Part shown: piece after piece, positions 1 to 20,000 of the stretch
How the letters are laid out: each line of letters opens with the position of its first letter
How positions within the stretch are numbered: the first letter of the stretch is position 1
Notes under the pieces: generated by a model
Told to the model about the DNA's origin: nothing
Database searches by the model: none
What the model saw: the letters and a program-made list of their open reading frames with translations, nothing else
Assembly: GCF_004010195.1 (NCBI RefSeq)
Contig: NC_057754.1
Span: 4,097,971 to 4,117,970, forward strand
Reading direction: 5' to 3'
DNA length: 20,000 nt
Source of the DNA: Chiloscyllium plagiosum
Lineage: Eukaryota
Translations under genes and position numbers: made by a program

Positions 1-356
1 TCCTCTCTAGGAAAGAGAAGGCTGAGGGGAGACTTTAGGAGATTGCTAGATGTGGAGAAGGTCTTCCTACTTGAGGTGGGGGAGAGGATGAGGGAAACAA
101 GACTACAAGAAGGGCCCAAAAAAATGGGTTGTCATCAAACAAATGCAATAGGAGATTCGGGAGAAACTTCAGTGAATGGTGAGCATGTAGAATTTGCATG
201 GAAAGGTTTTGGTAACGAGCACACGGGAAAATTTAAGGGGAAACTGGATAAGTACTTGAGGAAGAAATATTGATAAACAGAAGGGTGAAGGAGACTTCTC
301 TGGAGCAGAAATGTGGGCTGAAAGACCTGTGACTGTGCTGTAATGCTGTGTAATTC
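1..356 (+). mobile_element. Degenerate CR1-type LINE 3' fragment
   Basis: Start encodes SLGKRRLRGD, like the CR1 ORF2 motif SLEKRRLRGDL. Later FKGKLDKYL, then a CR1-like 3' UTR. Confidence 0.65.
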
Positions 357-2303: not shown

Positions 2304-2370
2304 ATGAGAGCACAGTGGAGCCATCCAGAGCTGATGACAAGGTTGACTTAATGGAAGCGGGCAGACCAAG
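2304..2370 (+). CDS. SIPA1: SIPA1 coding exon ((D)ESTVEPSRADDKVDLMEAGRP(S))
   Basis: Strong acceptor with branch-like ACTAAT, then tttttcttttatcag. Donor AAG|GTAGGT. 67 bp, phase 1/2, bridging the phase-1 donor at 1804 and the phase-2 acceptor at 5346. Confidence 0.82.
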
Positions 2371-2787: not shown

Positions 2788-3132
2788 CAGTACTGAGGGA
2801 GCGAGCACTGTAAGATATGCCATTTTTTGGTTGAGATCTTAAACCTGAGTAGTTCCAATCTGTCCTTTCAGATAAACACTGCTTTGAAAAGCAAAACACA
2901 AGCATTCTCTTCAGCATCCTGGGTCAATATTTATTGATCATCTAGCATCACTGAAATCAGATGATGTGGGTCATTATCACATTGTTATTTTTGGGAGCTT
3001 GCTCTACACAAATTGGCAATCCTGCATTTCCTGTGTACAGCAGCAAGTGCACTCCAAAAAAAGTACCACAGTGGCATTTTGAGACATCCAGAGTGATGTG
3101 ATAAGGCAAATAAAAATGCTGCAATTTCTTTT
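2788..3132 (+). mobile_element. Deu-domain SINE (SacSINE1/AmnSINE1-like), body and tail
   Basis: Recalled DeuSINE motifs appear in order: CAGTACTGAGGGAG..CACTG, TTGAGATCTTAAACC, CAATATTTAT, CAGATGATGTGGGTCATTATCACATTG, CAAATTGGC, and a tail near AAATGCTGCAATTTCTTT. Confidence 0.7.
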
Positions 3133-3454: not shown

Positions 3455-4725
3455 GAACATAAGAAATAAGAGTAAGTAATTTGGCCTCTTGGTTTGTTTC
3501 ATCATTCGACCAAATCATGGTTGATCTTTTGCCTCAATACCATTTTCCCACACTATCTCCATATCCTTGAAAGTTGCCACCCAGGTTGAAAGGGTTGTTG
3601 GGAAGGCATACAGTTTTCAGCTTTTATTAATAGAGGGATCGAGTTCCAGAACCATGAGATTATGCTGCAGCTGTACAAAGCTCTGGTGTGGCCGCACTTG
3701 GAGTATTGTGTACAGTTCTGGTCACCACATTATAAGAAGGATGTGGAAGCTTTGGAAAGGGTGCAGAGGAGAAGTTTCTTTACTCAGAGAGTAGTAAGGG
3801 TATGGAATGCTTTGCCTGCAACGTTAGTAGATTCGCCAACTTTAAGTACATTTAAGTCGTCATTGGATAAGCATATGGACGTACATGGAATAGTGTAGGT
3901 TAGATGGGCTTCAGATTGGTATGACAGGTCGGCACAACATAGAGAGCCGAAGGGCCTGTACTGCGCTGTACTGTTCTATGTTCTATCCATTGATAAATTT
4001 AGTATCTAGGAATCTATTGATCTATGACTTGAATATACTCATTGACTGAGGCCTCACTGCCCTCTGAGGAAGCAAATTCCAAAGATTCAGCCCACTCTGA
4101 ATAATTTCTTCTGAATCTCAGTCCTAAATGGCCTGTTCTTTGATCTGAGACTGTGTCCCCTGATTCTAGATCTCTTAGCCAGACAGAAGAAACATTCTTT
4201 CTGCATCTGACCTATAAAGCCCTGTACGCTTCAATGAGATCACCTCTCATTCTTCTAAACTCTACACAATAGTAAGGCCACTCTTTTCAATTTCTCCTCA
4301 TAAATCCTCCCAGAAATCAAATGAGTCTTCATTGCATTCCATCTGGTAAGTATATCCAGTCATAGGTAAGGGAACCAAAAATGTACATGATACTCCAACT
4401 GTGGTCTCATTGCAGCAAGACTAATTTACTCATGAGCTCAAATCATCTGGTCATTAAGATCAGCATACATTTGCTGTCCAAATTGTTTGCTCCACTGGCA
4501 ATTTCAATGATTTATACGTGGGAATACCCAGGTCTTTTCCCACATCTCTCACCATTTAAGAAATACTCTACATTTTTGTTTTAACTGCCAAAGTGGATAG
4601 CTTCATATTTTTTCCACAGTATACTCCATCTGCTATGTACATGCTCACTCATGGCCTGTCTAAATCATCTTAAAACCTCTACGCAACCTCCTCATAGCTC
4701 ACATTCTTGCCTAGTTTAGTGTCAG
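3455..4725 (-). mobile_element. Older CR1-type LINE fragment, interrupted by a + strand CR1 at 3567-3986
   Basis: GAACATAAGAAATAAGAGT tail at the left end. The reverse complement of AGATCACCTCTCATTCTTCTAAACTCTA encodes LEFRRMRGDL. Confidence 0.7.
3567..3986 (+). mobile_element. 5'-truncated, internally deleted CR1 (HER1-like) LINE 3' end
   Basis: ORF 3662-3898 carries LYKALVWPHLEYCVQFWSPHYKKDVEALERVQRR and FFTQRVVRVWNALP, hallmark CR1 ORF2 C-terminal motifs. Ends in a (GTTCTAT)2 tail. Confidence 0.9.
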
Positions 4726-5345: not shown

Positions 5346-5424
5346 TCAATCTCCGGCAGGCCTCAATGAGAAAGTGGTTCATTTGGAAGCTATTGTCAAG
5401 CAACTGCGTGAGAAGTTGATCAAG
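5346..5424 (+). CDS. SIPA1: SIPA1 penultimate coding exon, start of C-terminal coiled coil (QSPAGLNEKVVHLEAIVKQLREKLIK)
   Basis: Acceptor ttttcttgtttttcctcacag and donor AAG|GTGAGG (phase 0). Peptide resembles LSEKVSHLESMLRKLQEDLQK of SIPA1. Confidence 0.9.
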
Positions 5425-5569: not shown

Positions 5570-5700
5570 AGGGTTAGAAATCAGATGTAGAGGAAGCTTT
5601 ACTCTGTATCTAACCCTGTAATTTACCTACTCTAGAAGTGTTTGATGGGAACAGGGTAGTGGGAATTTCATTCCGTATCTAGCCCTGTATTGTACCTATA
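5570..5700 (-). repeat. About two units of the ~68-bp minisatellite family, inverted relative to 6985-7470
   Basis: AGCTTTACTCTGTATCTAACCCTG is the reverse complement of CAGGGTTAGATACAGAGTAAAGCT. Confidence 0.75.
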
Positions 5701-5775
5701 GCAGACTATGGAATGAAAACCTGGCAAAGTTTTTTGAAATACAACAATGGATTTATTTTTGTTTTCGAAAATCAG

Positions 5776-5922
5776 GAGCAAGAGGACAAGGCTTTGCTGG
5801 AGACTGAGGTGGAGCAGCTGCGGCAGAATAACCAGCGTCTTCATCTGGAGTCACAGACCACGGTGTGCCACCTTTTAAAAGTAACTGAATTACTGTGCCG
5901 TACTGCCCCAAAGCCTTCATAG
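5776..5922 (+). CDS. SIPA1: SIPA1 last coding exon (EQEDKALLETEVEQLRQNNQRLHLESQTTVCHLLKVTELLCRTAPKPS*)
   Basis: Acceptor ...atcag|GAG, phase 0, TAG stop at 5920-5922. Resembles EKADRAALEEEVRSLRHNNRRLQAES of SIPA1 and the equivalent SIPA1L C-termini. Confidence 0.9.
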   Translation, partial: EQEDKALLETEVEQLRQNNQRLHLESQTTVCHLLKVTELLCRTAPKPS

Positions 5923-6915: not shown

Positions 6916-6984
6916 CATCAGTGAGAGGATTGTCCTACTTTGGTCTTGACAAATGTACCCAAATGAAGTTTAGCTACAGTAAGA

Positions 6985-7470
6985 CTGTCTCTACACTGTC
7001 ACCATCAAAAACTCTCAGGACAGGGGGACAGAACAGGGTTAGATACAGAGTAAAGCTGTGTACCCATCACACACTCCCAGGATAGGTACAGCTCAGGGTT
7101 AGATACAGAATACAAAGCTCCCTATATGCTGTTGTCATCATATATTCCCACGGCAGGTACAGCATCAGGTCAGATACAGAGTAAAGTTTGCGTTACATTG
7201 TCCTCCTCAAATACACCCAAGTCAGGTATAGCATAGAATTTGAGAGCAAAGCTTTGTCTACACCGTCCTGATCAAGTACTCCCAGATACAGCATGAAGTT
7301 AGATACAGAGTAAAGCTTCCTCTATATTGTCCCCATAAAATACTCTTAGGATGGGTACAGCGCAGGGTTACATACAGAGTAAAGCTCCGTCTGTACTATT
7401 CCCCATCAAAAATTCCAAAGGAAGATCCAACAGGTCCATCTACATTGTCCTCATCAAATACTCTTAGGGA
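6985..7470 (+). repeat. ~60-71 bp minisatellite, ~7 degenerate units
   Basis: The AGATACAGA core recurs at 7041, 7101, 7172, 7301 and (as ACATACAGA) 7370. Approximate unit: GGGTTAGATACAGAGTAAAGCTCCCTCTACACTGTCCCCATCAAACACTCCCAGGACAGGTACAGCA. Confidence 0.85.
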
Positions 7471-7940: not shown

Positions 7941-7946
7941 TTATAC

Positions 7947-8267
7947 GGGCGGCACGGTGGCTCAGTGGTTAGCACTGCTGCCTCACAGCACCAGGGTCCC
8001 AGGTTTGATTCCAGCCTCGGGTAACTGTCTGAGTGGAGTTTGCACATTCTCCCTGTGTCTGCGTGGGTTTCCTCCGGGTGCTCCGGTTTCCTCCCACAAT
8101 CCAAAGATGTGCAGGTCAGGTGAACTGGCCATGCTAAATTGTCCATAGTGTTAGGTGCATTAGTTAGAGGGAAATGGGTCTGGGTGGGTTGCTCTTTAGA
8201 GGGTCGGTGTGGACTGGTTTGGCCGAAAGGCCTGTTTCCACACTGTAGGGAATCTAATCTAATCTAA
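7947..8267 (+). mobile_element. Full-length HE1-type V-SINE (tRNA-derived)
   Basis: Pol III box A TGGCTCAGTGG (7958-7968) and box B GGTTTGATTCC (8002-8012). V-domain GGAGTTTGCACATTCTCC...GGGTTTCCTCCGGGTGCTCCGGTTTCCTCCCACA. CR1-like tail ending in (AATCT)3. Confidence 0.92.
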
Positions 8268-8379: not shown

Positions 8380-8700
8380 CAGGAAAATCCTAGATTGCTT
8401 CTGTTTTTGGGAAAATCCTAGAACTCTTCAGCCATCTTGAAAATCTTAAACCTCTTCAGCCATCAGGAAAATCCTAGGCCACGACTGATATCAAGAAAAT
8501 CCCAGGTCTCATCAGCAATGATGAAAAGCACAGATCTCTCCTGCCATCTCGAAAATCCTAAATCTCTACTGACGTCAAGTTAATCTCAGGTTTCATCAGC
8601 TATCAGAAAATTCCAGATCTTTCAACCAACAGCAAAGTCCTCTAGCTCTCTGGAAAATACTAGGCCTCTTTAGCCATCAGGAACATCTCAAGCCTCTTTG
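8380..8700 (+). repeat. 28-bp degenerate minisatellite, ~11 units, consensus about GGAAAATCCTAGGCCTCTTCAGCCATCA
   Basis: The GAAAAT-like motif starts at 8383, 8411, 8439, 8467, 8495, 8523, 8551 and 8579, an exact 28-bp spacing. Confidence 0.85.
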
Positions 8701-9971: not shown

Positions 9972-10132
9972 GAAAGTGAGGACTGCAGATGCTGGAGATT
10001 AGAGTCGAGAGTGTGGTGCTAGAAAAGCACAGCAGGCCAGGCAGCATCCGAGCAGCAGGAAAATCGACGTTTCGGGCAAAAGCCCTTAATCAGGAATGAG
10101 GCTGAGAGTCTCGGGTGGCTAGATTTAAAAAA
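9972..10132 (-). mobile_element. Penelope-like element pseudo-LTR fragment with mutated hammerhead and 17-bp TSD
   Basis: Homologous to 10638-10735 and 17329-17430. Flanked by AGGGATTCAGCAATGGT (9955-9971) and AGGGATTCAGCAGTGGT (10133-10149). Confidence 0.75.
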
Positions 10133-10637: not shown

Positions 10638-10811
10638 GGAGAAAGTGAGGACTGCAGATGCTGGAGATCAGAGCTGAAAATGTGTTGCTGGAAAAGCGCA
10701 GCAGGTCAGGCAGCATCCAAGGAGCAGGAGAATCGGCTCATGCCCGAAACGTCGATTCTCCTGCTCCTTGGATGCTGCCTGACCTGCTGCGCTTTTCCAG
10801 CAACCCATTTT
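10638..10811. mobile_element. Penelope-like insertion with inverted pseudo-LTR arms (foldback) and 16-bp TSD
   Basis: 59-bp inverted arms at 10677-10735 and 10753-10811 with one mismatch. Direct repeat TTCTGCCCATATTTGG at 10622-10637 and 10810-10825. Confidence 0.8.
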
Positions 10812-11109
10812 CTGCCCATATTTGGACCAAGATAAGGACTGAGTGGCCCTGTTGGAACCCAAGTTAAGCATAAGTGAGCAAGTATAAGTGCTGCTTGATA
10901 ACACTGGTGCTGACAATTTCCATTGTCTTGAAGATTGGGAGTAGATTGATGAGGCAGGAATTGTCCTAATTGGATGTTTTTCTGATTCCGCTCAAAAGGA
11001 CCGGGAGACAAAGGATGGAGTATTTATGTTGCAGCTTAATATGCTTTGACCACATTTGAGCACCACATTTTGGAAGTGGCACAACACAGATTCATCAGAA
11101 TGAAAACTC

Positions 11110-13179: not shown

Positions 13180-16100
13180 CAGTAGTGAGTGCGTGCCCAA
13201 CTCATAGAAGATCAGAACTGAGGGATGCCTCACTGTTGAAAGGTCAGTACGGAGTGAGTGCCTCATTGTTGGAAGGTCAGTACGGAGGGAGTGCCTCACT
13301 GCTGGAAGATCAGTACGGAGGGAGTGCCTCACTGTCGGAAAGTCAGTACTGAGGGAGTACCTCACTGTTGGAAGGTCAGTACTGAGGGAGTGCCTCACGG
13401 TTGGAAGGTCAGTACGGAGAGTCCCTCACTTTTGGAAGGTCAGTACGGAGGGAGTGCCTCACTGTTGGAAGGTCAGTACTGAGGGAGTGCCTCACTGTTG
13501 GAAGGTCAGTACGGAGCGAGTGCCTCACTGTCGGAAGGTCAGTACTGAGGGAGTGCCTCACCTTTTGAATGTCAGTACGGAGGGAGTACCTCACTGTTGG
13601 ACGGTCAGTACGGAGGGAGTGCCTCACTGTCGGAATGTCAGTACGGAGGGAGTGCCTCACCTTTGGAAAGTTAGTACAGAGGGAGTGCCTCACTATTGGA
13701 AGGTCAGTACGGAGGAAGTGCCTCACTGTTGGAAGGTCAGTACTGAGGGAGTGCCTCACTATTGGACGGTCAGTACTGAGGGAGTGCCTCACTATTGGAA
13801 AGTCACTAAGGAGGGAGACCCTCACTATTGGAAGGTCAGTACGGAGAGTCCCTCACTGTTGGAAGGTCAGTACAGAGGATTTGCCTCACTATTCGAAGGT
13901 CAGTACGGAGGGAGTCCCTCACCATTGGAAATTCAGTACGGATGGAGAGTCTCACTTTTGGAAGGTCAGTGCGGAGGGAGTGCCTCACGATTGGAAGGTC
14001 AGTACAGAGGGAGTGTCTCACTGTTGGAAGGCCACTACGGAAGATGTGCCTCATTGGTGGAATGTGAGTACAGAGGGAGTACCTCACTGTTGTCAGGTCA
14101 GTATGGAGGGTGTGCCTCAATGTCGGAAGGTCAGTAATGAGGGAGTGCCTCACTGTTGGAAGGTCAGTACAGAGGGAGTGCCTCACTGTCGGATGGTCAG
14201 TATGGATGGAGTGCCTCACTATTGGAAGGTCATTACTGAGAGTCCCTCCCTGTTGGAAGGTCAGTACAGAGGGAATGCCTCACTGTTGGAAGATCAGTAC
14301 TGAGGGAGTGCCTCACTATTAGAAGATCAGTCCTGAGGGAGTGCCTCACTGTTGTCAGGTCAGTACGGAGGGTGTGCCTCATTGTCGGAAGGTCAGTACA
14401 GAGGGAGTGCCTCACTGTCGGATGGTCAGTACGGATGGAGTGCCTCACTATTGGAAGATCAGTACTGAGGGAGTGCCTCACTATTGGATTATCAGTCCTG
14501 AGGGTGTGCCTCAGTATTGGAAGGTCAGTACGGAGGGAGTGCCTCACCTTTGGAAAGTTAGTACAGAGGGAGTGCCTCACTGTCGGAAGGTCAGCAGGGA
14601 GGGAGTGCCTCATTGTTGGAAGGTCAGTAGGAAGGGTGTGCCTCACAATTGGAAGGTCAGTACGGAGGGAGTGCCACACTGTTGGAACGTCAGGATGGAG
14701 GGAGTGCCTCACTGTTGGAATGCCAGTACGGAGAGATTGCCTCTCCTTTGGAAAGTTAGTACAGAGGGAGTGCCTCACTGACGGAAGGTCAGCAGGGAGG
14801 GTGTGTCTCATTATTGGAAGGTCAGTACTGAGGGAGTGTCTCACTGTTGGAAGATCAGTACGGAGGGAGTGCCTCACTGTTGGAAGGTCAGTACGGAGGG
14901 AGTGCCTCACTATTGGAAGGTCAGTATGGAGAGTCCCTCACCGTTGGAAGGTCAGTACGGAGGGAATGCCTGACGGTTGGAAGGTCAGTACGGAGAGTCC
15001 CTCACTGTTGGAAGGTCAGTATGGAGGGAGTGCCTCACTGTTGAAAGGTCAGTACGGAGAGTCCTTCACCTTTGGAATGTCAGTACAGAGGGAGTGCCTC
15101 ACTATTGGAAAGTCACTACGGAGGGGGTCCCTCACTATTGGAAGGTCAGTACGGAGAGTCCCTCACCTTTGGAATGTCAGTACAGAGGATGTGCCTCACT
15201 ATTCGAAGGTCAGTACGGAGGGAGTCCCTCACCATTGGAAATTCAGTACGGATGGAGAGTCTCACTTTTGGAAGGTCAGTGTGGAGGGAATGCCTCACTA
15301 TTGGAAGGTCAGTACAGAGGGAGTGCCTCACTGTTGGAAGGCCACTACGGAAGATATGCCTCATTGTTGGAATGTGAGTACAGAGGGAGTGCCTCACTGT
15401 TGTCAGGTCAGTACGGAGGGTGTGCCTCAATGTCGGAAGGTCAGTACGGAGGGAGTGCCTCACTGTTGGAAGGTCAGTACGGAGGGAGTGCCACACTGTC
15501 GGATGGTCAGTACTGAGGGAGTGCCTCACCTTTGAATGTCAGTACGGCGGGAGTGCCCCACTGTTGTCAGGTCAGTACGGAGGGTATGCCTCATTGTCGG
15601 AAGGTCAGTACGGAGGGAGTGCCTCACTGTTGGAAGGTCAGTAATGAGGAAGTGCCTAACTGTTGGAAGGTCAGTACGGAGGGAGTGCCACACTGTCGGA
15701 TGGTCAGTACTGAGGGAGTGCCTCACCTTTGAATGTCAGTACGGCGGGAGTGCCCCACTGTTGTCAGGTCAGTACGGAGGGTATGCCTCATTGTCGGAAG
15801 GTCAGTACGGATGGAGTGCCTCACAGTCGGAAGGTCAGTACGGATGGAGTGCCTCACTATTGGAAGGTCATTACTGAGAGTCCCTCCCTGTTGGAAGGTC
15901 AGTACGGAGGGAATGCCTCACTGTTCGAAGATCAGTACTGAGGGAGTGCCTAACTATTGGAAGGTCAGTACAGAGCGAGTACTTCCCTCTTGGAAGGTCA
16001 GTACGGAGGGTATTTATCACTATTGGAAGGTAAGTACGTAGGGAGTGCCTCACTGTTGGAAGATCAGTACTGAGGGAGTTCCTCACTATTGGAAGATCAG

Positions 16101-17328
16101 TACGAAGGGAATGCCTGACTGTTGGAAGATCAGTCCTGAGGGAGTGCCTCACTGTTGGAAGATCACTACGAAGGGAATGCCTCACTGTTGGAAGGCCAGT
16201 ACGGAGCGAGTGCCTCACTGTCGGAAGGTCAGTACGGAGCGAGTGCCTCGCTGTCGGAAGGTCAGTACGGAGGGAGTGCCTCACCTTTGGAAAGTTAGTA
16301 CAGAGGGAGTGCCTCACTAGTGGAATGTCAGTACGGAGGGAGTGACTCACTGTTGGAAGGTCAGTACGGAGGGAGTGCCTCACTGTTGGAAGGTCAGTAC
16401 GGAGAGTCCCTCATTGTTGGAAGGTCAGTACGGAGGGAATGCCTCACGGTTGGAAGATCAGTATGGAGGGAATGCCTCACGGTTGGAAGATCAGTATGGA
16501 GGGAGTGCCTCACTGTCAGAAGGTCAGTACGGAGGGAGTGCCTCACTGTCGGAAGGTCAGTACTGAGGGAGTGCCTCACTATTCGAAGGTCAGAACGGAG
16601 GGAGTCCCTCACCATTGGAAATTCAGTACGGATGGAGAGTCTCACTTTTGGAAGGTCAGTGCGGAGGGAGTGCCTCACTATTGGAAGGACAGTACAGAGG
16701 GAGTGCCTCACTGTTGGAAGGCCACTACGGAAGATGTGCCTCATTGTTGGAATGTGAGTACAGAGTGTGTGCCTCACTGTTGTCAGGTCAGTACGGAGGG
16801 TATGCCTCAATGTCGGAAGGTCAGTACGGAGGGAGTGCCTCACTGTCGGAAGGTCAGTACGGAGGGAGTGCCTCACTGTTGGAAGGTCAGTACGGAGGGA
16901 GAGCCTCACTGTCGGATGGTCAGTACTGAGGGAGTGCCTCACCTTTGAATGTCAGTACGGCGGGAGTGCCTCACTGTTGTCAGGTCAGTACGGAGGGTGA
17001 GCCTCATTGTCGGAAGATCAGTACGGAGGGAGTGCCTCACTATTGGAAGGTCATTACTGAGATTCCTTCCCTGTTGGAAGGTCAGTACGGAGTGAATGCC
17101 TCACTGTTGGAAGATCAGTACTGAGGGAGTGCCTAACTGTTGGAAGGTCAGTACAGAGCGAGTGTCTCCCTCTTGGAAGGTCAGTACGTAGGGTGTGCAT
17201 CACTATTGGAAGGTAAGTACGTAGGGTGTGCCTCATTGTTGGAAGATCAGTACTGAGGGAGTGCCTCACTGTTGGAAGATCAGTACGGAGGGAATGCCTC
17301 ACTGTTGGAAGATTAGTACGGAGGGAAT
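13180..17328 (+). repeat. 33-bp tandem repeat array, left block (consensus TCAGTACGGAGGGAGTGCCTCACTGTTGGAAGG)
   Basis: Roughly 125 head-to-tail units with no unique spacers. Includes 31-bp (CAGTACGGAGAGTCCCTCAC) and 32-bp variants. Confidence 0.97.
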
Positions 17329-17554
17329 AGGTTGAAACTTTATTGCTGGAACAGCACAGCAGGTCAGGCAGCATCCAGGGAACAGGAGATTCGACGTTTC
17401 GGGCACAGGCCCTTCTTCAGGAATAAGCAGAGAGTGTTCAGCAGGAGAAGATAAAAGGTAGGGAGGAGGGACTTGGAGGAGGGGCGTTGGAAATGTGATA
17501 GGTGGAAAGAGGTCAAGGTGAGGGTGATAGGTCGGAGTAGGATGGAGGCGGAGA
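17329..17554 (-). mobile_element. Penelope-like element pseudo-LTR fragment abutting the satellite
   Basis: Homologous to the 9972 and 10638 copies. The minus strand has a pyrimidine-rich tract, then a hammerhead motif, then AATAAA (plus-strand TTTATT at 17339-17344). Confidence 0.8.
17389..17424 (-). ncRNA. Minimal type I hammerhead ribozyme motif
   Basis: Minus strand reads AUUC-CUGAAGA-A-GGGC(CUGU)GCCC-GAAAC-GUC-GAAU. It has the CUGANGA and GAAA cores, a 4-bp stem II, a 4-bp stem I (AUUC/GAAU), a loopless palindromic stem III (ACGU) and a GUC cleavage triplet. Confidence 0.78.
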
Positions 17555-17633
17555 ATCCCAGTCTGGTTCACTGTGATCCTGACCTAATTAAATGTGATCC
17601 CAGTCTGCTTTACCGTGATCCTGACCTAACTAT
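17555..17633 (+). repeat. 21-bp minisatellite (42-bp dimer) running into the gap
   Basis: ATCC recurs at 17555, 17576, 17597 and 17618, alternating CAGTCTG and TGACCTAA subunits. Confidence 0.7.
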
Positions 17634-18548
17634 NNNNNNNNNNNNNNNNNNNNNNNNNNNNNNNNNNNNNNNNNNNNNNNNNNNNNNNNNNNNNNNNNNN
17701 NNNNNNNNNNNNNNNNNNNNNNNNNNNNNNNNNNNNNNNNNNNNNNNNNNNNNNNNNNNNNNNNNNNNNNNNNNNNNNNNNNNNNNNNNNNNNNNNNNNN
17801 NNNNNNNNNNNNNNNNNNNNNNNNNNNNNNNNNNNNNNNNNNNNNNNNNNNNNNNNNNNNNNNNNNNNNNNNNNNNNNNNNNNNNNNNNNNNNNNNNNNN
17901 NNNNNNNNNNNNNNNNNNNNNNNNNNNNNNNNNNNNNNNNNNNNNNNNNNNNNNNNNNNNNNNNNNNNNNNNNNNNNNNNNNNNNNNNNNNNNNNNNNNN
18001 NNNNNNNNNNNNNNNNNNNNNNNNNNNNNNNNNNNNNNNNNNNNNNNNNNNNNNNNNNNNNNNNNNNNNNNNNNNNNNNNNNNNNNNNNNNNNNNNNNNN
18101 NNNNNNNNNNNNNNNNNNNNNNNNNNNNNNNNNNNNNNNNNNNNNNNNNNNNNNNNNNNNNNNNNNNNNNNNNNNNNNNNNNNNNNNNNNNNNNNNNNNN
18201 NNNNNNNNNNNNNNNNNNNNNNNNNNNNNNNNNNNNNNNNNNNNNNNNNNNNNNNNNNNNNNNNNNNNNNNNNNNNNNNNNNNNNNNNNNNNNNNNNNNN
18301 NNNNNNNNNNNNNNNNNNNNNNNNNNNNNNNNNNNNNNNNNNNNNNNNNNNNNNNNNNNNNNNNNNNNNNNNNNNNNNNNNNNNNNNNNNNNNNNNNNNN
18401 NNNNNNNNNNNNNNNNNNNNNNNNNNNNNNNNNNNNNNNNNNNNNNNNNNNNNNNNNNNNNNNNNNNNNNNNNNNNNNNNNNNNNNNNNNNNNNNNNNNN
18501 NNNNNNNNNNNNNNNNNNNNNNNNNNNNNNNNNNNNNNNNNNNNNNNN
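17634..18548. other. Assembly gap (915 N)
   Basis: Run of N. Confidence 1.
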
Positions 18549-20000
18549 AGGTCAGTACAGAGGGAATGCCTCACTGTTGGAAGATCAGTACGGAGGGAAT
18601 GCCTCACTGTTGGAAGATCAGTACGGAGGGAGTGCCTCAAGTTTGGAAAGTTAGTACAGAGGGAGTGCCTCACTGTTGGAAGATCAGTACGGAGGGAGTC
18701 CCTCACTGTTGGAAGGTCAGTACGGAGGGAATGCCTCACGGTTGGAGGGTCAGTATGGAGAGTCCCTCACTTTTGGAAGGTCAGTACGGAGGGAGTGCCT
18801 CACTGTTGGAAGGTCAGTACTGAGGGAGTGCCTCACTATTGGACGATCAGTACGGCAGGAGTGCCTCACTATTGGAAAGTCACGAAGGAGGGAGACCCTC
18901 ACTATTGGAAGGTCAGTATGGAGAGTCCCTCACTGTTGGAAGGTCAGTACAGAGGGTGTGGCTCACTATTCAAAGGTCAGTACGGAGGGAGTCCCTCACG
19001 ATTGGAAATTCAGTACGGATGGAGTGTCTCACTTTTGGAAGGTCAGTGTGGAAGGAGTGCCTCACTGTTGGAAGGTCAGTACTGAGGGAGTGCCTCACTA
19101 TTGGAAAGTCACTAAGGATGGAGACCCTCACTATTGGAAGGTCAGTACGGAGAGTCCCTCACTGTTGGAAGGTCAATACAGAGGGAGTACCTCACGAATG
19201 GAAAGTCACTAAGGATGGAGACCCTCACTACTGGAAGGTCAGTACGGAGAGTCCCTCACCATTGGAAATTCAGTTCGGATGGAGAGTCTCACTTTTGGAA
19301 GGTCATTGCGGAGGGTGTGCCTCACAATTGGAAGTTCAGTACAAAGGAAGTGCCTCACTGTTGGAAGGCCACTACGGAAGATGTGCCTCATTGTTGGAAT
19401 GTGAGTACAGAGGGAGTGCCTCGCTGTTGTCAGGTCAGTACGGAGGTGGTGCCTCACTGTTGGAAGGTCAGTAATGAGGGAGTGCCTCACTGTTGGAAGG
19501 TCAGTACGGAGGGAATGCCTCACTGTCGGATGGTCAGGACTGAGGGAGTGCCTCACCTTGGAATGTCAGTACGGTGGGAGTGCCTCACTGTTGTCAGGTC
19601 AGTACGGAGGGTGAGCCTCATTGTCGGAAGGTCAGTACGGAGGGAGTGCCTCACTGTCGGAAGGTCAGTACAGAGGGAGTGCCTCACTATTGGAAGGACA
19701 TTACTGAGAGTCCCTCCCTGTTGGAAGGTCAGTACGGAGGGAATGCCTCACTGTTGGAAGATCAGTACGGAGGGAATGCCTCACTGTTGGAAGATTAGTA
19801 CGGAGGGAATGCCTCACTGTTGGAATATCAGTACGGAGGGAATGCCTCACTGTCGGATGGTCAGGACTGAGGGAGTGCCTCACCTTGGAATGTCAGTACG
19901 GTGGGAGTGCCTCACTGTTGTCAGGTCAGTACGGAGGGTGAGCCTCATTGTCGGAAGGTCAGTACGGAGGGACTGTCGGAAGGTCAGTACAGAGGGAGTG
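18549..20000 (+). repeat. 33-bp tandem repeat array, right block (continues past the window)
   Basis: Same monomer, orientation and diagnostic variants as the left block. Confidence 0.97.

What the first reader, a model, noticed from the sequence alone, without database searches (positions are those of the whole stretch)
17389..17424. Intact minimal hammerhead ribozyme in a Penelope-like pseudo-LTR beside a satellite array
Seen: the minus strand reads AUUC CUGAAGA A GGGC CUGU GCCC GAAAC GUC GAAU, with all core nucleotides, perfect stems I and II, one extra A before stem II, and an AATAAA ~45 nt downstream. Established: Penelope-like elements carry minimal type I hammerheads with a loopless palindromic stem III, proposed to cleave as dimers. 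Inference: this copy could self-cleave after GUC. A minus-strand transcript reading past the AATAAA would enter the 33-bp array, giving satellite RNA with a ribozyme-defined 5' end.
Basis: partly seen in the sequence, partly recalled or inferred. Interest (0 to 1): 0.72.

Follow-up and report, generated by a model that had tools for sequence, protein, structure and literature searches.

The report
Lone Penelope-type hammerhead beside a satellite
The motif is a real, intact-looking minimal hammerhead ribozyme of a kind already described in Penelope-like jumping genes, carried here by one short, young fragment of a very common repeat that ended up at the edge of a satellite array, with no sign that it cuts or shapes satellite RNA.

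Summary
Observation confirmed. Minus strand 17424-17389 has every feature of the minimal type I hammerhead of Penelope-like elements (PLEs); 0 of 2000 shuffles gave such a motif. It lies in a 224-nt fragment (17331-17554) that differs by one letter from a contig of another run and belongs to a very abundant family (27,321 contigs of one run laid). Three more pieces lie in this window; their 3' ends fall 62 or 94 nt past the cut site, the PLE 'tail' pattern. Variation spares the core. The link to an RT-endonuclease gene could not be tested here. The satellite idea is not supported: the array has no ribozyme, the element ends at its ordinary tail-less end, no RNA read of 1,989 laid ran into the array (weak, as one locus would give few reads), and a lone minimal hammerhead needs a partner core to cut this site; none is visible. 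The 'perfect' stem I and the AATAAA are subfamily traits. This scan has reported the same kind many times, in this genome too. New member of a known kind; interest low.

The parts
17389..17424 (-). Minimal type I hammerhead motif (core, extra A between 9 and 10.1, 4-bp stems I and II, loop-less palindromic stem III; predicted cut between 17393 and 17392)
   Evidence: features as in PMC4209133
17331..17554 (-). 224-nt young fragment of the pLTR-like end of an abundant PLE-type family; 5'-truncated at 17554, tail-less 3' end at 17331, 62 nt after the cut site
   Evidence: X7 contig matches 17331-17554 with 1 other letter and continues with family sequence on both sides; X1, X5 and X7 loose ends at 17554, X5, X7 and X23 at 17331; distance
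17339..17344 (-). AATAAA, part of this subfamily's sequence, absent from the 3 other window pieces
   Evidence: within the X7 match
17329..17330 (.). 2 nt between the element's 3' end and the array; on the minus strand the array then starts with ATT
13207..17328 (.). 33-bp satellite array, left block (125.6 copies, 81% matches); holds no hammerhead core and no AATAAA/ATTAAA on the minus strand
17555..17633 (.). Unrelated 42-bp tandem repeat (about 2 units visible) at the element's 5' side
   Evidence: 32 of 37 matches at period 42; X5 joint 'goes back 42'
17634..18548 (.). Assembly gap of 915 N; hides the other junction and any second arm
18549..20000 (.). 33-bp array, right block; holds an uninterrupted exact match (19766-19810) of the 45 nt that abut the element, i.e. 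an empty-site paralogue
9972..10109 (-). Sibling copy with tail (3' end 94 nt after its cut site), core broken (G8 to U)
10641..10815 (.). Inverted pair of sibling pieces: minus arm 10735-10641 with tail (94 nt) that starts at the cut site +-1 nt; plus arm about 10735-10815 that starts inside stem II and ends tail-less (62 nt)

Best explanation
A recently retrotransposed, 5'-truncated 3'-end fragment of a PLE-type family, carrying the family's minimal hammerhead, sits at the edge of an older 33-bp satellite. Shown: motif, family membership, youth, ends, empty-site paralogue. Inferred: the element's RT-endonuclease nicked AT-containing DNA (ATT at the junction), began reverse transcription at the tail-less start site 62 nt past the hammerhead cut site and stopped after 224 nt. 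The motif is intact because the copy is young and the parent family keeps its core; in the parent element it works as a dimer or with element protein. In this lone fragment it is most likely a silent passenger and plays no part in satellite RNA biology.
For: Motif far beyond chance. One-letter difference to the X7 contig over 224 nt; 27,321 X5 contigs, 3,128 X1 contigs and 1,989 of 12,955,460 X23 records laid. Four window pieces end 62, 62, 94 and 94 nt after the cut: an optional 32-nt tail, as described for PLEs (30-40 bp; PMC8557442 passages; PMC11167929). Inverted pair in the window and opposite-strand joints in X23 and X5, also a PLE hallmark. Of the 26 X5 variant places at 5% or more, 23 are visible; inside the 36-nt motif they hit only N7, three loop II positions and one stem I position (P=0.0004; 0.005 if all 3 hidden places were in the core). 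Array units continue normally at all 23 listed paralogues of the abutting 45 nt. Double-hammerhead fold -13.1 kcal/mol against -14.2 for two monomers and -18.3 for the best dimer; stem I probability 0.00-0.08 in native context.
Against: No RT or GIY-YIG frame in the window and no genome held, so the PLE link rests on structural hallmarks, the papers and unchecked earlier notes. No compensatory change was seen: stem II pairs are invariant in the visible rows except C11.1 to U (3% of X5 depth), so covariation is untested. The 85% likeness filter and the family's youth both favour apparent conservation. No listed read or contig bridges the array-element junction, no target-site duplication can be checked, and the gap is 79 nt away, so a mis-join is possible. 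Folding energies ignore tertiary contacts and protein help.
Confidence: 0.85

Rival explanations
1. One reading: minus-strand read-through is cut at 17393/17392 (with a partner from another locus, a second copy of the same RNA, a second arm in the gap, or element protein) and yields satellite RNA with a ribozyme-made 5' end.
For: All core positions intact. Family RNA is abundant, about 59% of depth in the direction expected for the ribozyme strand (993.9 vs 690.3 at 17367-17377), so trans partners exist. The array has no AATAAA/ATTAAA on the minus strand to stop a read-through. Protein-assisted cleavage is shown for the anole element in vitro.
Against: X23 depth 0 at 17290-17322; 115 and 215 loose ends at 17331 and 17333 continue with the ordinary tail; no place where many molecules begin or end. 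No promoter or transcript known for this strand. Published monomers inactive, dimers weak; no RNA-seq reads began or ended at the cut site in anole. The minus-strand partner at 10.0 kb has a broken core.
Confidence: 0.05
2. The adjacency to the satellite is an assembly mis-join near the gap; the motif is real but belongs elsewhere.
For: 915-N gap 79 nt from the element; three unrelated repeats meet within 310 nt; no listed piece bridges the junction; PLE structures are known to trouble short-read assemblies.
Against: The junction falls exactly at the tail-less end seen in an independent insertion (62 nt) and at an ATT, which a random mis-join would rarely do; X1 has low depth (3.5-6.6) on the array side with one record running over the end, not shown to be bridging.
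Confidence: 0.07
3. The repeat is a non-PLE SINE-like or retrozyme-like element that carries a PLE-derived hammerhead.
For: No coding frame seen; only short pieces in the window; non-autonomous hammerhead repeats derived from pLTRs are described (bioRxiv 10.64898/2026.07.22.740005).
Against: Not tandem; tail and inverted pairs fit PLE insertion; family sequence continues at least 255 nt upstream in X7. A non-autonomous derivative would still be the same known kind.
Confidence: 0.03

Closest known systems
Minimal hammerheads (min-HHR) in pLTRs of metazoan Penelope-like elements (Cervera and De la Pena 2014, PMC4209133; parts 1-2 of 4 read)
   Same: Type I core, no helix III loop with palindromic 15.2-16.2, a nucleotide between 9 and 10.1, G10.1-C11.1, short helix I; mostly found as single motifs in truncated copies, some as opposite-strand pairs.
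   Different: Host appears to be a cartilaginous fish (recalled, and so named in earlier notes); 'shark' and 'Callorhinchus' were absent from the 2 supplement files searched, file 1 not searchable. Helix II is 4 bp, not the 7-8 bp of the schistosome motifs. Parent ORF not seen here.
Poseidon PLE of green anole, PAc (Frangieh et al. 2024, PMC11167929; parts 1-2 of 4 read)
   Same: Hammerhead a short way upstream of the insertion's 3' end (RT start 85-92 nt after the cut by the paper's numbers; 94 nt for tailed copies here); optional tail; ATT at the target.
   Different: PAc is a full coding element tested in vitro; this is a 224-nt non-coding fragment, with no start codon at stem II.
Newt/axolotl satellite 2 and non-LTR retrozymes (PMC7229834 passages; bioRxiv 10.64898/2026.07.22.740005 part 1 and passages)
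   Same: Type I hammerhead and tandem DNA at one locus; dimer dependence.
   Different: There every repeat unit carries a ribozyme; here the 33-bp unit has none and a single motif lies outside the array.

Membership tests
PLE minimal hammerhead (min-HHR) | Conserved core CUGANGA, GAAA, UH | tested here: met
PLE minimal hammerhead (min-HHR) | No loop III, palindromic 15.2-16.2 | tested here: met
   17397-17394 palindromic; feature
PLE minimal hammerhead (min-HHR) | Extra nucleotide between 9 and 10.1; G10.1-C11.1 pair | tested here: met
   A17413; G17412-C17401; features
PLE minimal hammerhead (min-HHR) | Short helix I (4-5 bp) and a helix II | tested here: met
   4 bp and 4 bp; most family members have U.U at the third pair
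PLE minimal hammerhead (min-HHR) | Family of genomic copies with conserved core | tested here: met
   (3 of 26 X5 variant places not shown)
PLE minimal hammerhead (min-HHR) | Compensatory changes in the stems | tested here: inconclusive
   stem II nearly invariant at 85% likeness or more; no two-sided change visible
PLE minimal hammerhead (min-HHR) | Self-cleavage as a dimer or with protein | not testable with these tools
   needs in vitro assay; folding model does not favour the active dimer
pLTR of an EN+ Penelope-like element | Adjoins an RT plus GIY-YIG ORF in full-length copies | tested here: inconclusive
   none in window; no genome held; no relatives in collections
pLTR of an EN+ Penelope-like element | 5' truncation and optional 30-40-bp tail | tested here: met
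   ends at 62 vs 94 nt after the cut in 4 of 4 pieces
pLTR of an EN+ Penelope-like element | Adjacent inverted 5'-truncated copy | tested here: met
   for the family: 10641-10815, opposite-strand joints; for this copy unknown (gap)
pLTR of an EN+ Penelope-like element | Both insertion junctions / target-site duplication | tested here: inconclusive
   5' side is a 42-bp repeat, then gap
Satellite 2 / non-LTR retrozyme | A hammerhead in each tandem unit | tested here: not met
   0 CTGANGA on either strand of 13207-17328; one full motif in the window
Rfam hammerhead families | Covariance-model match | tested here: not met
   no hammerhead family at E<=5 (whole window) or E<=10 (17330-17480)

The most novel reading that the evidence does not exclude
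In a genome flooded with this family, scattered lone hammerheads are cut in vivo by pairing in trans with other family RNAs or with help from element protein; at this locus that gives an uncapped satellite RNA starting at G17392, and across the genome some inverted insertions (such as the arm that starts at 10734/10735) are fossils of RNA ends made by the ribozyme.
Probability: 0.05. Interest if true: 0.6.

Novelty: new member of a known kind. Interest (0 to 1): 0.14.

Why it matters
As found, little: it is one more truncated copy of a ribozyme class described in 2014 and already reported many times by this scan in the same genome. It would matter if cleavage in vivo were shown, because no in vivo activity of a metazoan PLE minimal hammerhead was found in the papers read here, and a ribozyme-defined satellite RNA made by a chance insertion would be a new route to satellite transcripts. 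This locus (gap-adjacent, lone, junction unverified) is a poor place to test that; a full-length young element would be better.

Tried and rejected
Rfam: no hammerhead match; the miRNA-family hits at 10.69-10.80 kb are below their gathering scores and are the inverted pair. Own genome: not held. Hammerhead patterns in metagenome and viral contigs: 0 hits each. A 20-23-nt family word gave 17 metagenome and 3 bacterial loci, all 20 chance matches of 20-34 nt with no extended likeness. Run search: no RNA holder listed; X23 was added by species label. Earlier findings by sequence (element, satellite) and near: nothing. Pfam on 5 frames: nothing above cut-off; Atlas and PDB on one exon-like frame: generic coiled-coil leads only, recognition below threshold. 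Lunse et al. (RNA Biol 14:1499) is not held; only its title and a review's summary were seen. Paper searches for a shark PLE hammerhead or a hammerhead feeding an unrelated satellite gave 1 paper each, none on this by title or abstract (only the first was searched further); the library lacks most subscription papers. Rejected: retrozyme/satellite 2 membership; 'perfect stem I' and AATAAA as signs of selection on this copy.

Full report
Observation. A descriptor that asks for the core, stems I and II and a loop-less stem III finds only this site in the window; 0 of 2000 dinucleotide shuffles gave a site with 4+4 bp and 1 of 2000 with 3+3 bp. The bare core with a spacer is not significant by itself (80 of 200 shuffles). 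Rfam has no matching hammerhead model. The features seen, including the extra A between positions 9 and 10.1, the G10.1-C11.1 pair and the palindromic 15.2-16.2, are those listed for PLE minimal hammerheads in PMC4209133 (parts 1 and 2 of 4 read).

The carrier. Laying four runs on 17290-17600 at 85% likeness placed 27,321 contigs of X5, 3,128 of X1, 1 of X7 and 1,989 of 12,955,460 raw RNA records of X23. These are counts of records, not copy numbers, but they show a very abundant family. The X7 contig (669 nt, another organism label) matches 17331-17554 with one other letter (17425, outside the motif) and goes on with 45 nt before 17331 and 255 nt behind 17554; X1 and X5 show the same loose end at 17554. 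So the window holds a young 224-nt piece, cut short at its 5' side and lacking the family's last 32 or so nt. Three sibling pieces lie in the window: 9972-10109 on the minus strand with a broken core (G8 to U), and an inverted pair at 10641-10815. Their 3' ends lie 94, 94 and 62 nt after the cut site, and the present copy's at 62 nt. An optional 30-40-bp tail, heavy 5' truncation and adjacent inverted copies are the described marks of PLE insertions (PMC8557442, passages); in the anole element the tail reflects RT start sites and the endonuclease prefers ATT (PMC11167929, parts 1 and 2 of 4). The array begins with ATT on the minus strand two nt after the element's end; one three-letter match is weak evidence. 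What I could not show is linkage to an RT-GIY-YIG gene: the window has none, no genome is held, and the collections hold no relatives. That the host is a cartilaginous fish is my recall, echoed by unchecked earlier notes.

Conservation. X5 lists 26 variant places at 5% or more; 23 can be read from the shown rows and 3 (transitions) are hidden. Inside the 36-nt motif the visible ones are N7 (17416), three loop II positions (17406-17408) and one stem I position (17390): 4 of 5 fall in the 5 free positions (P=0.0004; 0.005 if the 3 hidden places were all in the core). No core position or stem II pair is among them; C11.1 to U is seen at 3% of X5 depth and in 138 of 1,105 X23 reads, a one-sided change. 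No compensatory change was seen, so covariation is untested, and the likeness filter favours conserved copies. The majority letter at 17390 gives a U.U pair in stem I (72% of X5 depth, 49% of X1, 927 of 1,224 X23 reads), so the perfect stem I is a subfamily trait shared with X7, and the AATAAA is missing from the 3 other window pieces.

Can this copy cut? Alone it cannot close stem III. In a double hammerhead the bond at 17393/17392 is cut by the partner's core (inference from the topology). The only other minus-strand core in the window is broken; the 915-N gap could hide another arm. Nearest-neighbour energies put the active dimer at -13.1 kcal/mol, two monomers at -14.2 and the best dimer at -18.3; in native flanks stem II forms (0.90-0.95) but stem I does not (0.00-0.08). 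These ignore tertiary contacts and protein. Published: monomer no cleavage, dimers low; anole motif active only with the element's protein, not needed for insertion in vitro, and no RNA-seq reads ending at the site. Lunse et al. was not held; a review says such motifs likely work as dimers with very low rates (PMC6765202 passages).

The satellite. The 33-bp array has no hammerhead core on either strand of the left block, so it is not a satellite 2 or retrozyme array, where each unit has one (PMC7229834 passages; bioRxiv 10.64898/2026.07.22.740005 part 1 and passages). The 45 nt abutting the element recur exactly at 19766-19810 and, at all 23 listed near matches, continue as ordinary array: the element interrupts or abuts a pre-existing array. 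In X23 the family is read in both directions (about 59:41), 95% of laid reads run on into unlike sequence, depth on 17290-17322 is 0, the loose ends at 17331 and 17333 (115 and 215 reads) continue with the normal tail, and no place of many starts or ends is listed. This fits passive transcription of many scattered copies. No listed piece bridges the junction either, so a mis-join near the gap stays possible, though the junction's position at the ordinary tail-less end argues for a true insertion end.

A side lead. The minus arm of the inverted pair starts at the cut site (10734, or 10735 given one shared letter), and a few contig joints in table 5c end at 17391-17393 (one in X1, three in X5 of the 12 shown; their kind is not given). 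Others end at 17379-17382, the opposite-strand joints lie at 17412/17413 and 17424, many loose ends sit at 17405 and 17424, and depth falls without a step at the cut. So fossil cut ends are a possibility only.

Novelty. The kind is known since 2014. Searches for a shark PLE hammerhead or for a hammerhead feeding an unrelated satellite gave one paper each, none on this by title or abstract; file 1 of the 2014 supplements could not be searched and the preprint's supplements were not seen, and either may list shark motifs; the preprint does report hammerhead tandems in one chondrichthyan genome. This scan has 56 findings with these words in at least 6 genomes, several in this genome. Verdict: correct catch, new member of a known kind, satellite link incidental at about 85-90%, interest 0.14.

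Noticed in passing
window 10641-10815: Inverted pair of the same family; the minus arm starts at the hammerhead cut site (+-1 nt) and the plus arm starts inside stem II. It gives the spurious Rfam miRNA hits.
   Followed up: partly
window 13207-17328 and 18549-20000: The 33-bp array has higher-order structure: rare 25-mers recur at offsets of 197, 327, 1310, 1380 and 2690 nt.
   Followed up: partly
window 2788-2801: A 14-nt exact match to the satellite unit (E=0.007) in what may be a decayed interspersed repeat; the satellite may derive from such a repeat (recalled DeuSINE-like, not tested).
   Followed up: partly
window 2304-2370, 5346-5424, about 5768-5920 (+): Exon-like pieces of a plus-strand gene ending in a coiled-coil frame; recalled as like the C-terminus of SIPA1-family proteins, not confirmed by Pfam, Atlas or PDB. 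The hammerhead is antisense to read-through from it.
   Followed up: partly
window about 7945-8260 (+): Looks like a tRNA-derived V-SINE (HE1-type) copy; recalled, not tested.
   Followed up: no
window 1-270 and about 3570-3990 (+): Decayed 3' ends of CR1-like LINEs by recalled peptide likeness; no Pfam hit above cut-off.
   Followed up: partly
window 8411-8611; 6983-7470 with inverted relatives at 5585-5700: A 28-bp minisatellite and a roughly 65-bp degenerate tandem repeat with an inverted copy 1.4-1.7 kb away.
   Followed up: no
window 17555-17633: A separate 42-bp tandem repeat joins the element's 5' end before the gap; whether it belongs to the insertion or to the host is unknown.
   Followed up: partly
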